Below are positions 512 to 17,960 of a stretch of 24,498 nucleotides of DNA, piece by piece. The stretch is taken from positions 1-24,498 of the forward strand of contig BTVV01000093.1 in NCBI GenBank assembly GCA_045863855.1. Reading direction: 5' to 3'. The DNA is from Planctomycetota bacterium (GTDB taxonomy: Bacteria > Planctomycetota > SZUA-567 > H5-PLA8). Under the pieces are notes generated by a model. It saw nothing but the letters and a program-made list of their open reading frames with translations. It did no database searches and was not told the DNA's origin. A program made the translations under genes and the position numbers. How positions within the stretch are numbered: position 1 is the first letter of the stretch; each line of letters starts with the position of its first letter.

Positions 512-1420
512 ATGAGCTTGTCGTTCGCGATCGTGGGCGGCGGAGCGCTAGGCGGCTTTTACGGCGTGATGCTCGCCGCCGCCGGGCAGTCCGTCCGCTT
601 CCTGCTGCGCTCGAATTACGAGCAGGCGCGGCGGGAAGGCCTCGCGCTCCAGTCCGCCGCCGGAATCGTCCGCATTCAACCTGCCGAGGTCTATGCGCAA
701 GCCGAGGGAATGCCGCCGTGCGACGTGTTCTGCGTCTGCACCAAATCGGTCGGCAACGCGCGGCTTCCCGAGGTGCTGGGTCCGCTGCTTCGTCCTGGCG
801 CGGTGTTGCTGTGCATGCAAAACGGGCTCGGCGTGGAAGAGGATCTCGCGCGCATCCTGCCCGAAACGCCGCTCGTCGGCGGCCTCTGCTACTTGGGCGC
901 GGTCTCGACAAGCCCCGTGACGGTCCGGCATGTCGGTTACGGGCACCTCAGCCTGGGCGCTTTCGGCCCGTCCGCCCAAGCTTGGCTGGAACCACTCGCC
1001 GCCGCCTTTCGCGCCGCGGGCATCGGCGCGCAAATCGCGGCGAACCTGCAGGAAGCGCGCTGGCGAAAACTGGTCTGGAACATCCCGTTCAACGGGCTCT
1101 GCGCCCAGTACGGGCTCGACACCAGCGCGCTGATGGAACGGCACGAGGACGAGGTCAAGGCGCTGATGCTTGAAGTATGTGCCGGGGCGCGCGCGTGCGG
1201 AGCCGCGGTGGACGACGCCTACTGCGGCCAGATGCTGGAAATCACGCGCGGCCTGCCCGAGTACGAGCCCAGCCTCAAAGTCGATTTCGACCGCCGCCGC
1301 GCACCGGAGTTGCATTACCTGTACGAGCGCCCGCTCGAGGCCGCCCGAGCCTCCGGCCACGAGATGCCGGGCGTGAAAGCGCTTTACGAAAAGCTAAAGG
1401 ATCGCGCGGTGGATTTATAA
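512..1420 (+). CDS. panE: 2-dehydropantoate 2-reductase (ketopantoate reductase, ApbA/PanE family)
   Basis: GGGALGGFYG Rossmann motif, CTKS, MQNGLG, RWRKLVWNIPFN and PSLKVDF...PE motifs of ketopantoate reductases. Confidence 0.9.
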   Translation: MSLSFAIVGGGALGGFYGVMLAAAGQSVRFLLRSNYEQARREGLALQSAAGIVRIQPAEVYAQAEGMPPCDVFCVCTKSVGNARLPEVLGPLLRPGAVLLCMQNGLGVEEDLARILPETPLVGGLCYLGAVSTSPVTVRHVGYGHLSLGAFGPSAQAWLEPLAAAFRAAGIGAQIAANLQEARWRKLVWNIPFNGLCAQYGLDTSALMERHEDEVKALMLEVCAGARACGAAVDDAYCGQMLEITRGLPEYEPSLKVDFDRRRAPELHYLYERPLEAARASGHEMPGVKALYEKLKDRAVDL

Positions 1421-1439
1421 TCCGCTTGCAAAGGATTTC

Positions 1440-2318
1440 ATGAATCCTTATGGGATCGACCTCATGGCGCGTTCCAAGATTGGGCTTTCTAGACTGATTT
1501 TCATCGTGCTGTCCGCGGGCATTTTCCTCGGGATAAACATTACATGGTCTAAGGGTCGAACAGGGTTGGCGTCCGGCATACCTGTGGAATTCGTGGAGGA
1601 GCGGGGATGGCCTGCAATAGCGCACCAGTATTCGGTTCGGACAGGCATTCCGCCAACGGAATGGCGCTCCGAATCTCGTTCAGACTTTTGGCGCGACTTT
1701 AGTGCTTCTGGAGTTTATCCATACGAGGTTCACGAAACTTGGCGTGAGGGAGGATGCGTAACCAACTTTCTCATACTCTTGATCTTTATCGGCCTTTGCT
1801 TGTGCACTAGGCAGATTTCCTTTGTGAAAGATATGGAGTGTCGTAATGATGCAAGTGCTCTAATTGGGTATCATAAGCTCCCCCTGCATCCATTTACTCT
1901 GATTTTCACAACCTTACTATTAATGTCTGTTTTCGAGATTTTTCACTCCGACCATCCCATCTCTGACAAGTTTCGTTACGCCACCATCTACCTTTTCTTA
2001 GTTGCCGTGCTAGTTGCCGCTTTCGAAGCGACGGTACGCTGGGCCTCCGTAAGGATAAACGCGTTCCGACCCCGCATCTCCTTATTGGGAGCCGTCTCAA
2101 TGATGCTCGCCCTTAGCGCCATGCTTCCCTTCGTCATGGAATTCATGCAGATCCAGCGCGGATGGAAGGCCAAACTTCAGGTCATGACTTTGTGCGCGCC
2201 AGTAATGCTTGCCATGCTCTTGGCGGTAAATGGACTTTGCATTTTATATCTTCGAAAAAAATCAAATCACAATGAGCAACACAAACAAGCCGCCAACCAA
2301 TCCGGCAAAGACGATTAA
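1440..2318 (+). CDS. Hypothetical multi-pass membrane protein (low GC)
   Basis: 292-aa ORF with about six hydrophobic segments and an RGWP motif; visibly more AT-rich than flanking genes. Confidence 0.65.
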   Translation: MNPYGIDLMARSKIGLSRLIFIVLSAGIFLGINITWSKGRTGLASGIPVEFVEERGWPAIAHQYSVRTGIPPTEWRSESRSDFWRDFSASGVYPYEVHETWREGGCVTNFLILLIFIGLCLCTRQISFVKDMECRNDASALIGYHKLPLHPFTLIFTTLLLMSVFEIFHSDHPISDKFRYATIYLFLVAVLVAAFEATVRWASVRINAFRPRISLLGAVSMMLALSAMLPFVMEFMQIQRGWKAKLQVMTLCAPVMLAMLLAVNGLCILYLRKKSNHNEQHKQAANQSGKDD

Positions 2319-2331
2319 AGGGATGCGTGCC

Positions 2332-2371
2332 AAAAAAAGCCCGGCCGGCGGAATCACTCCGACGGCCGGGC
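2332..2371 (-). terminator. Rho-independent terminator, minus strand
   Basis: Minus strand reads GCCCGGCCG-T-CGGAG-TGA-TTCCG-C-CGGCCGGGC followed by T7; no U-tract follows the hairpin on the plus strand. Confidence 0.85.
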
Positions 2372-2575
2372 CGGTGAGTACACCGGACTGTCCTCGCAGT
2401 TGGCTCGTCAGCCCCGACGGTTCCCCCCGGGGCTGGCCGACTGCGGCTGTTCGCCGCGTCGGGACACTCCTTCGATTAAACGTCGCTCTCCAGAGCGCCC
2501 TAAGATCGTGACCCTGATGGATAAAGGGAGGCCACGAACGAAAGGATGCGGCCAGGTACTACCGAAAGGTCCGTC

Positions 2576-2626
2576 CTACAAGGACAGCCTCCTCCGGTCA
2601 CCGTAGAGGTTACTACTGCCTGTCAC
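2576..2626 (-). CDS. Putative 16-aa peptide MTGSSNLYGDRRRLSL embedded in the structured RNA
   Basis: GTG start 7 nt after GGAGG of GAAAGGAGGTGG; 16 sense codons then TAG. Confidence 0.4.
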   Translation of the reverse strand: MTGSSNLYGDRRRLSL

Positions 2627-2796
2627 TGGACCACCTCCTTTCGTGCTGCGGCCTCCCTTAGTCATCCTGACCTCCCCCGGAGCGGGTCGGAAGTCGGGGT
2701 TGCCGGCCACCGTTTAGACCGGTACGCACCGACTTGCGGACTGACCTAGGTGTCTACTAACCCAGCCGGAAACCGTCTTTCCGGCTCCATAATCGG

Positions 2797-2825
2797 ATAA
2801 TCGATTACGCACCGGTGCAACTCAA
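2797..2825 (-). promoter_or_regulatory. Possible sigma70-type promoter for the structured RNA
   Basis: Minus strand TTGAGT-N17-GATTAT places the start near 2790, immediately before the first hairpin; the match to consensus is imperfect. Confidence 0.35.
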
Positions 2826-2914
2826 GATATTTTCGCTCGCTTTCCGTTTTGAATAGAAATTATAGGTTCAAGACCCGCTTACGGTTGCGATCTTAATGCG
2901 CTCTGCACGTTTCC

Positions 2915-2941
2915 AAGCACGGCCCATGAACTGCCGTGCTT
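2915..2941. promoter_or_regulatory. 9-bp inverted repeat upstream of the oxidoreductase (operator or leader hairpin)
   Basis: AAGCACGGC-N9-GCCGTGCTT. Confidence 0.3.
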
Positions 2942-3010
2942 ATCGCGTGCGCTTGTGAGCCACCGCACAGGAGCTAACGTGGTAGCTACCTTGGCTCGGA
3001 GCATTCGCCC

Positions 3011-4150
3011 ATGAGTTCAGCTACCCGTCCCATCCGCATCGGCATTGTCGGCTGCGGGCAGATCGCCCAGATCATGCACCTGCCCCACCTGCGCCAGTTG
3101 GACGAACTATTCCAGCTCACGGCGCTCTGCGACGTCTCGCCCGGCGTGCTGGCCTACTGCGGCGAACGCTGGCACGTCGAACCCGCGCAGCGCTACGCTT
3201 CAACCGAAGCGATGGTCGAACGGGCGGGACTCGACGCCGTGCTCGTCTGCGACGTGCTCCATTCCGACGCGAGCGTCACGGCGCTGAACGCCGGCTGTCA
3301 CGTCTTGGTCGAGAAGCCTATGGCCCACAGCCTGCAGGAATGCGACCGCATGCTCGAAGCCGCCGCCAAGAGCGGCAAAACGCTGATGATGGCGTACATG
3401 AAGCGCTTCGACCCGGCCTACGAGTACGCGCAGGCGCGCGTGGCCAAGCGCAGCGACGTTTTCCACGTCCGCGCGCACGACTTCGTCGGGCCGAACGGCG
3501 CGTTCACCGGAGACATTCACCGCACGGTCGTCTTCAAGGACATCCCGCCCGGCAACGACGCGCGGGAGGTCATGCGCAAGCGCATGAACCAGGCGCTGGA
3601 AGGACGCAGCGAGCCGGCGGCCGGGCACGTGTACGGGACACTCCTGGGACTGTGCACGCACGATTTGACCATTCTTCGCGGCATGTTCGGCAGCCCCAAG
3701 CGCGTCAAGTCGGCGCTGTACGGGCGCGGCGGGCGCACCTTCCACGCGCTGCTCGACTACGGCGACCAGATCACCGGCGTCTTCGAGTATGCCAACCTCA
3801 AGCTCAAGAAGTTCGACGAAGTTCTCTCGATCTACGCCGACAGCGAAGTGATCCACGTCAAGTTTCCGAGCCCCTACGTGCCCTTCGCGCCGACGGTGGT
3901 GGAACTGTGGGAACCCGACGGTCCGGGCAAGGCCGACCGCCCCGACGCGCCCGATCTGCCCGATGGTCCCGCGGGGCAGGGCTTCAAGGAATCGTTCGTG
4001 ATGCCCAGCCTCGACGAAGCCTTCCGCCGCGAGTTGCAGCATTTCGCGCATTGCGTGCGCACCGGAGCGAAACCGCGCACGACGCCCGAAGACGGGCGCG
4101 AGGACGTGCGGATGTGCATCGAGATGACCAAAGCCGCGCTGCAAGGCTGA
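3011..4150 (+). CDS. Gfo/Idh/MocA family oxidoreductase
   Basis: IRIGIVGCGQIA NAD-binding motif, HVLVEKPMA, YMKRFDP, and C-terminal F..ELQHF..CV..G..P....DG; ggag SD upstream. Confidence 0.92.
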   Translation: MSSATRPIRIGIVGCGQIAQIMHLPHLRQLDELFQLTALCDVSPGVLAYCGERWHVEPAQRYASTEAMVERAGLDAVLVCDVLHSDASVTALNAGCHVLVEKPMAHSLQECDRMLEAAAKSGKTLMMAYMKRFDPAYEYAQARVAKRSDVFHVRAHDFVGPNGAFTGDIHRTVVFKDIPPGNDAREVMRKRMNQALEGRSEPAAGHVYGTLLGLCTHDLTILRGMFGSPKRVKSALYGRGGRTFHALLDYGDQITGVFEYANLKLKKFDEVLSIYADSEVIHVKFPSPYVPFAPTVVELWEPDGPGKADRPDAPDLPDGPAGQGFKESFVMPSLDEAFRRELQHFAHCVRTGAKPRTTPEDGREDVRMCIEMTKAALQG

Positions 4151-15286: not shown

Positions 15287-15733
15287 CTAAGCGGGCGCCT
15301 TCGCATCTGAATTATCGTAAAAATACCAGCGATCCGCAATAGACATGTAAAGCCGGAAGAAATGGCTTAACCCCGAGCGATACCGCCTCCGTATGATGGC
15401 TTCAGGAATTTCGTGGCCGCCCCGGCTTACGCGTTCGGCCATTCGAGCCACGGCTTGATCCGGGCTGGGCAGCCAATAATACAGCAACAGGAACCCATAG
15501 CCGGAATCTTTGAGCGATTTTATCCAAGGTACAAAAGATCGGCTCGCCAAGGTGCTCTCGAATGCGAATGACCGGCGCTCATGCGCCAACTCCCGCCAAG
15601 CCTTGCGCGATCACGTCCGCGTTTACAAAAGCTTCGACGCCAAGAAAATCGTTTATAATTGTGGAGGCCGACGTCGTCTTTCCTGCCCCGTTAGGTCCGC
15701 CTAATAGGATGACCCAAGGCCGCTCGGCCGCGC

Positions 15734-15737
<4 letters not shown>
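15287..15737 (-). pseudogene. Zeta-toxin-like / predicted ABC-type P-loop ATPase, frameshifted
   Basis: GGPNGAGKTT Walker A and FVNADVIAQGL lie in one frame (stop at 15579); SFAFESTLA, RGGH.IPE..IRRRY and YDNS lie in another. ATG 15737 overlaps the trpB stop. Confidence 0.82.
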
Positions 15738-16966
<1,229 letters not shown>

Positions 16967-17100
16967 CGTTGCCGTCCTCGCCGTTCGAGCCGCCCCCAAG
17001 GTACGCGCCACGGCGGGCTGGCACAAGCCGAGGGGCGAACCGTTCCGTGCGCCGCGGCGGCCCGCGGGCTATACTCGGCATCCCGCTAACGGAGGCCGCC

Positions 17101-17382
17101 GTGACGCCGCTCTCGCGAGACACCGAGCCCTGGGCCGAAGCGCTCCAGGCCGAACTGATCCGCAACGCCACGCCCGCGCAGCGCCTCAAGCTGGCCCTGC
17201 AACTTACCTGCTTCAGTTGGAACGCCACGCGCGCGGCCATCGACCGCCTGCATCCCGAAAAGTCGCAGGACGAACGCGACCGACTGTTTCTGACTCAGCT
17301 TTACGGGAGCGATACGGCCGAGTGGTTTTTCGTGAACCGCGACCGCCAGCGCCGCGAGACGCAGGCGCGGGAGCGGACGTGA
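17101..17382 (+). CDS. Small helical hypothetical protein coupled to the nucleotidyltransferase (putative antitoxin-like partner)
   Basis: GGAGG SD then GTG 17101; DT.P.AE..Q.EL.R..TP.QRL...HP..S..E.......LYG pattern; its TGA overlaps the next GTG. Confidence 0.72.
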   Translation: MTPLSRDTEPWAEALQAELIRNATPAQRLKLALQLTCFSWNATRAAIDRLHPEKSQDERDRLFLTQLYGSDTAEWFFVNRDRQRRETQARERT

Positions 17383-17960
17383 GCGAGAACGAGATCGTCG
17401 GTGTTTGCCTGCTCGTGATACGCGCCCTGGAAGCGCTGGGCATTCCTTACGAATTGGGCGGTTCGATGGCCAGTTCCTTGCTCGGCGCGCCGCGCTCCAC
17501 CCGCGATGCGGACCTGGTGGCCGATCTGTCCCCCGCGCAAGCGCGCACGCTGGCGGAATCGCTTCATCCCGATTTCGTATCGAACGCGGACAGCGCCGCC
17601 AGCGCCGTGGTTCAAGGCCGCTCGTTCAACCTGATTCACTTGGGAACGATGCTGAAGGTCGACATCTTTCCGGTCAAGGCCGGCCTGTACTGGCGTGGCG
17701 AATTTGCACGCCGGCTGCGCATCCGGCTGCCCGGCGACTCCGCGACCGAAGTCTGGTGCACGAGTCCCGAAGACATCGTGCTCAAGAAACTCGTCTGGTA
17801 CCGCGACGGCGGCTCGGTCTCGGAGCGCCAGTGGCAGGATCTGCTGGAAGTTTTGCGCGCACAGCGCGGCCGCCTGGACGAAGGCTATCTGAGCCGCTGG
17901 GCGGACGATCTTGGAGTCGCCGCACTGCTGAAGCAGGCCCAATCCCAGGCCCAAACCTGA
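17379..17960 (+). CDS. Pol-beta-superfamily nucleotidyltransferase-like protein
   Basis: GIPY.LGGS.AS...G.PR.T.DAD motif, then KVDIF, SPEDIVL.KL.WY, S.RQW.D and LD..YL.RWA. Confidence 0.8.
   Translation: MSENEIVGVCLLVIRALEALGIPYELGGSMASSLLGAPRSTRDADLVADLSPAQARTLAESLHPDFVSNADSAASAVVQGRSFNLIHLGTMLKVDIFPVKAGLYWRGEFARRLRIRLPGDSATEVWCTSPEDIVLKKLVWYRDGGSVSERQWQDLLEVLRAQRGRLDEGYLSRWADDLGVAALLKQAQSQAQT

What the first reader, a model, noticed from the sequence alone, without database searches (positions are those of the whole stretch)
2524..2659. 17-nt complement of the 16S rRNA 3' end, locked in a long stem in front of a 16-aa sORF
Seen: plus strand 2626-2642 reads CTGGACCACCTCCTTTC, identical at 16 of 17 positions to the canonical bacterial 16S 3' tail CTGGATCACCTCCTTTC. 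The minus-strand RNA (GAAAGGAGGUGGUCCAG) could therefore pair with 17 contiguous 16S nucleotides, the one difference giving a G-U pair. That is far longer than an ordinary SD and would reach into the helix 45 region. A GUG lies 7 nt after GGAGG and opens MTGSSNLYGDRRRLSL-stop (2626->2576). The whole site is paired with a downstream internal anti-SD mimic (CUGGCCGCAUCCUUUCGU) inside AAGGGAGGCC/GGCCUCCCUU, so the sORF forms the loop of the stem that hides its own RBS. Inference: a conditional ribosome trap or sponge, or a tightly repressed peptide mRNA. SD sequestration resembles type I toxin mRNAs, but the peptide is hydrophilic, unlike Hok, Fst or TisB toxins.
Basis: partly seen in the sequence, partly recalled or inferred. 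Interest (0 to 1): 0.85.

Follow-up and report, generated by a model that had tools for sequence, protein, structure and literature searches.

The report
Large ribosome-docking mini-mRNA, rre type
This is a real, free-standing gene for a folded RNA of about 450 bases that carries an oversized landing pad for the ribosome, a 16-codon frame and a second landing pad just before the stop codon: an enlarged Planctomycete version of the unexplained 'rre' mini-messages described in Alphaproteobacteria, probably built to hold ribosomes rather than to make a useful peptide.

Summary
Observation confirmed. The site is the core of a stand-alone minus-strand RNA gene (about 2790 to 2332) found in 13 genomes of one Planctomycetota family and 21 metagenome loci. 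It works like the rreB/rreR mini-mRNAs of Hahn et al. (PMC5711450): 17-nt complement of the 16S tail ending on the G of a GTG, then a short ORF. The principle is therefore published, and this scan has already met rre-type RNAs on other DNA (e1-6786274, e1-7605182). Different here: three times longer, with covarying 5' and 3' domains; frame and stop are kept but codons vary non-synonymously (RNA, not peptide, is selected); a second SD-like site (GGAGG) lies a fixed 12 nt before the stop, and such a site is enriched in every rre clade sampled (53 of 123 other ORFs against 6 expected), which I did not find in print; a long-range helix buries the stop. Best model: a ribosome is held at the start and again at the stop, and this occupancy sets the RNA's fold and fate. 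Ribosome binding was not testable here.

The parts
2815..2820 (-). candidate -35 hexamer (TTGCAC) of the RNA's promoter
   Evidence: TTG-type hexamer at the same place in 11 of 13 homologs, TTGACA in 3 of them; the consensus scan called no promoter in this copy; inferred
2332..2790 (-). whole RNA gene, about 450 nt (5' end estimated)
   Evidence: homology over the whole length; fold z -6.55; four RNA-library contigs of four studies lie on 2372/2391-2773/2779 (strand, level and true ends not shown)
2764..2786 (-). 5' hairpin P1
   Evidence: 9 pairs, 7 with changes on both sides (helix 1)
2651..2752 (-). structured leader domain with near-invariant CACCU (2752-2748) and invariant CCGCA (2739-2735) motifs
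   Evidence: alignment A1; helices 2-5, 16 pairs, 10 with changes on both sides
2626..2642 (-). SD1: 17-nt complement of the 16S rRNA 3' end, last base = G of the start codon
   Evidence: 17-18 contiguous pairs in 10 of 13 homologs, 15 in one, 10 in two (against the G002 tail)
2576..2626 (-). sORF, GTG start, 16 aa MTGSSNLYGDRRRLSL, TAG stop
   Evidence: GTG, frame and stop kept in 13 of 13 genomes (14-16 aa) and 21 of 21 metagenome loci
2598..2603 (-). helix A 5' strand CGGUGA (inside the ORF)
   Evidence: pairs with UCACCG 2377-2372; 5 of 6 pairs never vary, so no covariation support
2591..2595 (-). SD2: second SD-like GGAGG, ending 12 nt before the stop, in the loop between helices A and B
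2576..2589 (-). helix B 5' strand (last four codons and stop)
   Evidence: complementary to 2399-2386; duplex beats at least 193 of 200 shuffles in 13 of 13 homologs
   Evidence: predicted in this copy; significant in 7 of 13 homologs
2524..2533 (-). 3' arm of the outer stem with 2659-2650; particular to this lineage
   Evidence: not conserved in alignment A1
2372..2399 (-). 3' strands of helix B (2399-2386) and helix A (2377-2372)
2332..2371 (-). terminator-like hairpin and U run
   Evidence: 12 pairs, 6 with changes on both sides, followed by T run in 13 of 13; not listed by the simple scan

Best explanation
A single-copy, independently transcribed rre-type mini-mRNA whose working parts are RNA signals and the act of translation, not the peptide. 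Step 1 (shown for rreB, inferred here): SD1 binds the 30S subunit very tightly through the whole free 16S tail; with the GUG start this gives slow escape and little translation. Step 2 (computed): holding SD1 open favours a second fold in which helices A and B bury the end of the ORF and leave SD2 in a loop; the masked and the open fold cross each other, so they are alternatives. Step 3 (inferred): a ribosome that does elongate melts these helices and, at the stop, meets SD2 at a spacing that lets the anti-SD pair again, so it lingers after termination. Step 4 (inferred, least sure): ribosome occupancy at start and stop decides the RNA's fold, cleavage and lifetime, making the RNA a read-out of free ribosomes or of recycling; the large leader and 3' domains are lineage-specific additions that tune this or bind proteins.
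For: Same RBS layout as rreB/rreR, for which 30S co-sedimentation, weak translation and start-codon-dependent decay were measured. GTG, frame and stop in 13 of 13 and 21 of 21, length changes only in whole codons. Last nine sense codons: 1 synonymous against 6 non-synonymous variant codons; third bases of CTG and TCC, which the search pattern did not fix, never vary in 18 distinct metagenome loci. Stop exactly 12 nt after GGAGG in 21 of 21. Strong anti-SD match 12-18 nt before the stop in every group: this family 12 of 12 (2.1 expected), rreR-type 30 of 32 (9.0), rreB-type 7 of 11 (0.2), CC2171-type 21 of 49 (3.4), other phyla 13 of 17 (1.7), other Planctomycetota 6 of 14 (1.0); 10.5% of 600 long ORFs of this genome. 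GAGG is the commonest 4-mer there, 53 of 123 against a shuffle mean of 6.3 and maximum of 15, and occurs in all three frames (36/9/8). An SD 9-14 nt before a stop slows mRNA release 50-fold in vitro (PMC5737721, passages). Helix B probability of at least 0.5 in 4 of 13 free and 10 of 13 with SD1 held open. Covarying structure: 24 of 53 pairs change on both sides, 0 of 500 shuffles. RNA-library contigs of four studies lie on just this gene.
Against: No ribosome data exist for this RNA. In this window's own copy helices A and B are not predicted even with SD1 held open (also G003, G015), and opening SD1 costs 23 kcal/mol against 5.6-13.5 in the 12 relatives. The SD2 window was chosen after looking at the sequences, kin are not independent, and 70 of 123 other ORFs lack GAGG there; the motif may be a conserved helix arm or protein site (in Rfam Ms_IGR-5 the consensus GGUGGCUGC is complementary to GCAGUCACC before the terminator). 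SD2 here lies a few bases further from the stop than the tested 9-14 nt. Helix A never varies and helix B rests on few independent changes. Two homologs keep only 10 contiguous pairs to the tail used. rre function is unknown even in Bradyrhizobium.
Confidence: 0.6

Rival explanations
1. Conditional ribosome sponge or storage RNA: an abundant RNA that unmasks SD1 under stress and parks 30S or 70S particles in bulk, possibly two at a time (start and stop).
For: Duplex with the 16S tail -33 kcal/mol; masked and open folds; 20 of 23 listed RNA runs from 8 studies hold part of the stretch and the 4 laid cover the gene; shortest rre ORFs sampled are 9-10 codons, about one ribosome spacing (recalled).
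Against: 20-fold overexpression of ribosome-binding rreB did not change growth and ribosomes far outnumber it; abundance cannot be read from contigs.
Confidence: 0.15
2. A large structured RNA with a job of its own (protein scaffold or precursor of a trans-acting small RNA) in which the SD-ORF module is only a tether or a timer for processing.
For: About 300 nt of covarying structure outside the module, invariant CCGCA and near-invariant CACCU motifs; rreB yields a 60-nt ORF-containing fragment in the soluble fraction; 15-nt core nearly invariant.
Against: The 3' domain varies from about 75 to 245 nt; alphaproteobacterial rreB works with 165 nt and an 8-nt leader; no Rfam family fits; core invariance is explained by helix A and SD2.
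Confidence: 0.13
3. A tightly repressed gene for a functional peptide (toxin or signal).
For: Frame, start and stop kept; clade-conserved peptides (YGDRRxLSx here); Hahn et al. read rre genes as small-protein genes.
Against: Synonymous sites frozen while amino acids change; peptide hydrophilic; peptides unrelated between clades while GAGG is kept across frames; RreB and RreR unstructured and without growth effect.
Confidence: 0.1
4. Chance match or a stray piece of a 16S gene.
For: The match is short and the assembly lacks its 16S 3' end.
Against: 0 of 100 shuffles; flanks are not 16S-like (no rRNA hit); conserved with ORF and terminator in 13 genomes and 21 loci.
Confidence: 0.01

Closest known systems
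rreB (Bradyrhizobiaceae, 14 aa) and rreR (Rhodobacterales, 18 aa) mini-mRNAs; Hahn et al., RNA Biol 2016/17, PMC5711450 (abstract and main text parts 1-4 of 5 read; figures and supplement not seen)
   Same: 16-17-nt complement of the 16S 3' end whose last base is the G of a GTG; short ORF; own promoter and terminator; RBS predicted to be partly paired; context not conserved.
   Different: Other phylum; about 450 nt against 165; SD1 lies about 150 nt from the 5' end behind a structured leader instead of 8 nt; large 3' domain; unrelated peptide; no blastn match of the RNA body to any of 119 named loci once the RBS is masked (5 family members tried). The paper reports only Alphaproteobacteria and, in the text read, no second SD before the stop.
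Rfam RF01867 CC2171 (Caulobacter sRNA)
   Same: Consensus begins with the same RBS and GUG; members found by the RBS pattern carry 21-22-aa ORFs (L120, L191). This locus is the model's best hit in the genome.
   Different: 21.6 bits against a cut-off of 75; only the RBS aligns. Filed in Rfam as a non-coding sRNA.
Rfam RF02471 Ms_IGR-5 (actinobacterial sRNA)
   Same: Consensus has an extended SD, GAGGUGGCUG shortly before a stop triplet and UCACC before the terminator, all three also seen here; rre-type loci of Acidobacteriota and Methylomirabilis pass its cut-off (L139, L150, L236).
   Different: No hit at this locus at E up to 10; no long leader; GAGGUGGCUG is read in another frame.
Type I toxin mRNAs (hok, fst, tisB; recalled)
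   Same: RBS masked by a downstream part of the same RNA.
   Different: Hydrophilic 14-16-aa product under no visible amino-acid selection; far longer SD.

Membership tests
rre mini-mRNAs (Hahn et al.) | at least 16 nt complementary to the 16S 3' end | tested here: met
   17 nt with one G-U against the tail of two same-genus genomes; own tail not assembled
rre mini-mRNAs (Hahn et al.) | complement ends on the first base of a GTG start | tested here: met
   G at 2626; GTG in 13 of 13
rre mini-mRNAs (Hahn et al.) | conserved short ORF | tested here: met
   14-16 aa in 13 of 13 and 21 of 21
rre mini-mRNAs (Hahn et al.) | stand-alone transcript with own promoter and terminator | tested here: inconclusive
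   covarying terminator, positional -35, RNA-library contigs confined to the gene; start, strand and promoter not shown
rre mini-mRNAs (Hahn et al.) | co-sediments with 30S, weak translation, start-codon-dependent decay | not testable with these tools
   needs cells or extracts
rreB or rreR in the narrow sense | clade peptide of 14 or 18 aa in an alphaproteobacterial RNA of about 165 nt | tested here: not met
   unrelated peptide, about 450 nt, Planctomycetota
Rfam CC2171 (RF01867) | score of at least 75 bits | tested here: not met
   21.6 bits
Rfam Ms_IGR-5 (RF02471) | score of at least 45 bits | tested here: not met
   no hit at the locus
tmRNA | tRNA-like domain and resume-codon tag | tested here: not met
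   ARAGORN 0 genes; no Rfam hit; ORF has its own RBS and start
type I toxin-antitoxin mRNA | hydrophobic membrane peptide | tested here: not met
   MTGSSNLYGDRRRLSL and homologs are hydrophilic
type I toxin-antitoxin mRNA | antisense antitoxin RNA | not tested
   contigs give no strand
leader-peptide attenuator | conserved downstream operon on the same strand | tested here: not met
   downstream gene is convergent here; by a rough GC3 rule the best downstream ORF is opposite-strand in 8, same-strand in 4, none in 1 of 13

The most novel reading that the evidence does not exclude
rreB, rreR, CC2171, Ms_IGR-5 and this RNA are one ancient, many-phylum class of two-site ribosome-holding RNAs: SD1 holds an initiating ribosome, SD2 holds a terminated one a short ORF further on, and a fold switch driven by 30S binding couples the two, so that the RNA senses or stores ribosomes (perhaps as a queued pair). 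This family's 450-nt form would be its most elaborate version.
Probability: 0.25. Interest if true: 0.8.

Novelty: new variant of a known kind. Interest (0 to 1): 0.52.

Why it matters
The rre genes have been an open puzzle since 2016: conserved, ribosome-bound, barely translated, no phenotype. This case shows that the design reaches far beyond Alphaproteobacteria, ties it to two Rfam families filed as non-coding, and adds two testable features: a second SD-like site at a fixed distance before the stop and selection on nucleotides rather than amino acids. Both move the question from 'what does the peptide do' to 'what does a ribosome held at start and stop do', and can be tested at once in Caulobacter, Bradyrhizobium or Rhodobacter.

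Tried and rejected
Rfam at gathering score over the window: 0 hits; tRNA/tmRNA: 0. Promoter scan: 0 sites; its two terminator calls are not the conserved hairpin. Second copy in the genome: none by DNA search. Beyond the family, DNA matches were short or weak (E 2e-4 or worse) and were not used. Two loci (G011, G019) lacked SD1 and terminator and were dropped, as were three extra one-mismatch places; 5 of 25 loci and 6 of 119 had no 8-30-aa ORF and were dropped; identical ORFs were counted once (135 and 123 left). G014 and G016 keep a weaker SD1 but were kept. MAFFT misplaces the helix B partner in A1, so helix B was counted in a script, not by the count of structure pairs. Reads: 4 of 23 listed runs were laid; most of the flanks have no cover, which proves nothing; no DNA run was laid as control; small shares of the other runs are no evidence, also not of habitat. 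Paper searches: the RBS motif as text, 0 papers; rreB with extended Shine-Dalgarno, 1 paper; rreB or rreR from 2017, the 30 listed of 942 all off topic; Planctomycete terms, 0; Ms_IGR-5, 3 papers, one read in passages, annotation only; CC2171, 4 papers, two read in passages, expression shown, no function; S. meliloti Ribo-seq paper has no 'rreB'; S. aureus extended-SD paper has no 'Hahn' or 'Bradyrhizob'; listings gave nothing new. The library lacks most subscription papers, so later work on rre may exist. No protein structure or homolog search was run on the 16-aa peptide (too short for the tools).

Full report
Observation. The finding lies in the intergenic stretch between a plus-strand ORF ending at 2318 and a Gfo/Idh/MocA oxidoreductase gene starting at 3011. 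The 17-mer at 2626-2642 is there, unique in the window (0 of 100 shuffles) and in the assembly at up to 1 mismatch. The assembly's 16S 3' end is missing; both same-genus genomes that hold a 16S gene end in ...GGCTGGATCACCTCCTTTCT (2 of 3 genomes searched). Start, ORF and stem are as described. The host is placed in Planctomycetota by inference: loci of phylum-mates match named loci of Kolteria novifilia and a Phycisphaeraceae MAG outside the RBS.

The real unit. The minus strand from about 2790 to 2332 folds far better than shuffles (z -6.55). A DNA search matched 12 of 16 family genomes and a core-motif search added G015 while two other hits were false, giving 13 aligned members of 361-508 nt. 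The consensus has a 5' hairpin, a multi-helix leader, the SD-ORF module, a variable 3' domain and a terminator; 24 of 53 pairs change on both sides, 0 of 500 shuffles reach that, and slid partners fall to 29-49% paired (kin are related and the structure was derived from the alignment, so this is not a probability). Neighbours differ among members, and the convergent ORF next to the terminator here is missing at that place in G002. 20 of 23 listed RNA runs from 8 studies hold a small share of window 1400-3400; in the 4 laid, one contig each of 387-405 nt lies on 2372/2391 to 2773/2779 at 99% identity or more, one run also has three short, more diverged pieces on the oxidoreductase gene. Contigs show neither strand, level nor true ends, and no DNA control was laid, so this is a hint of a discrete transcript whose limits agree with the prediction.

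What is selected. GTG, frame and stop are kept in 13 of 13 (14-16 aa) and in 21 of 21 metagenome loci found by a pattern that did not include the stop (3 are duplicates, and some match the genome set). Yet in the last nine sense codons there are 6 non-synonymous and 1 synonymous variant codons. The frozen bases have RNA roles: CGGUGA can pair with UCACCG just before the terminator (helix A), the last codons and stop pair with a conserved segment 5' of it (helix B: 0 of 200 shuffles in 11, 2 and 7 of 200 in two; at most 4 of 200 in all 18 metagenome loci that held the anchor), and GGAGG lies in the loop between. It crosses helix B, so the two are alternative folds; forcing SD1 open raises helix B from 4 to 10 of 13, but not in this window's copy, whose extra outer stem makes it the most locked member (23 kcal/mol to open against -33 for the bare 16S duplex).

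Wider class. The RBS-plus-GTG pattern occurs once in 25 of 301 phylum genomes (reversed control in 8), 20 of them with a 10-22-aa ORF. A capped scan of named genomes returned 119 loci, 113 with a 9-27-aa ORF: mostly Alphaproteobacteria, plus 7 Planctomycetota, 3 Acidobacteriota, 2 Burkholderiales and one each of Krumholzibacteriia, Gemmatimonadota, Lujinxingiaceae and Methylomirabilis (some phylum names recalled). Of 20 scanned, 2 pass Rfam CC2171 and 2 pass Ms_IGR-5; of 5 more closely scanned, 3 pass Ms_IGR-5. One locus is the 14-aa ORF of Afipia broomeae ATCC 49717, a strain that Hahn et al. list for rreB, which ties my peptide-based group labels to the paper; its figures and supplement were not seen and may bear on taxon range.

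Second SD. Across all groups an anti-SD match peaks 12-17 nt before the stop; GAGG is the top 4-mer, 53 of 123 against 6.3 expected, in all three frames. The window was chosen after inspection and kin inflate the counts, but the excess appears in six groups with unrelated peptides. With the stop in the A site this puts the motif at an ordinary SD-to-P-site distance (inference). An SD before a stop is known to slow mRNA release 50-fold and to raise ribosome occupancy at stops (PMC5737721, passages). I did not find this feature in the text of Hahn et al. or in searches.

Comparison and verdict. The element works like rreB/rreR and meets the sequence hallmarks by which that paper defined rre genes; it is not rreB, rreR, CC2171 or Ms_IGR-5 in the narrow sense. 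Earlier notes of this scan reached the same rre reading for other DNA; I had reached it before, and those notes are not independent support. No note covers this family. New are the enlarged architecture, the evidence against peptide-level selection, SD2 and the link between the Rfam families. Shown: sequence, conservation, covariation of leader and terminator, RNA-library cover. Computed: alternative folds, SD2 enrichment. Inferred: 30S binding, weak translation, lingering at the stop, and the purpose. Verdict: new variant of a known kind, interest 0.52.

Noticed in passing
L060-L118 (viral contigs): The same oversized RBS with GTG occurs in 59 viral loci, many ahead of short Lys/Arg-rich ORFs (e.g. 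15 aa in L112, 11 aa in L083, 40-41 aa in L072 and kin); a few are rreB- or CC2171-like and may be host DNA.
   Followed up: no
L035:1300-1540: Three tandem short Lys-rich ORFs (about 9-11 aa), two with extended SD and GTG, followed by a structured stretch and terminator, in a phylum-mate.
   Followed up: no
window 1440-2318 (+): 292-aa ORF, lower in G+C, with hydrophobic stretches and no Pfam hit; absent at this place in the same-genus genome G002, so probably a recent insertion next to the RNA's terminator.
   Followed up: partly
L038-L050, L121, L138, L155, L156, L159, L162, L177: Other Planctomycetota rre-type RNAs also have structured leaders of about 70-200 nt before SD1, unlike the alphaproteobacterial and acidobacterial ones; several distinct families.
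   Followed up: partly
G000 C24 and C44: Two further sites AAAGGAGGTGAGCC followed by a start codon, on other contigs; possibly a second family of strong-RBS small genes.
   Followed up: no
L134: An rreR-type (Rhodobacterales) start lies at a contig end of a MAG labelled Cytophagales; likely mis-binned.
   Followed up: no
window 15287-15589 (-), 17217-17960 (-): Short ORFs around the trpB-like gene (15734-17026) look like an AAA/zeta-toxin-like fragment and a nucleotidyltransferase-like gene (recalled resemblance, not tested).
   Followed up: no
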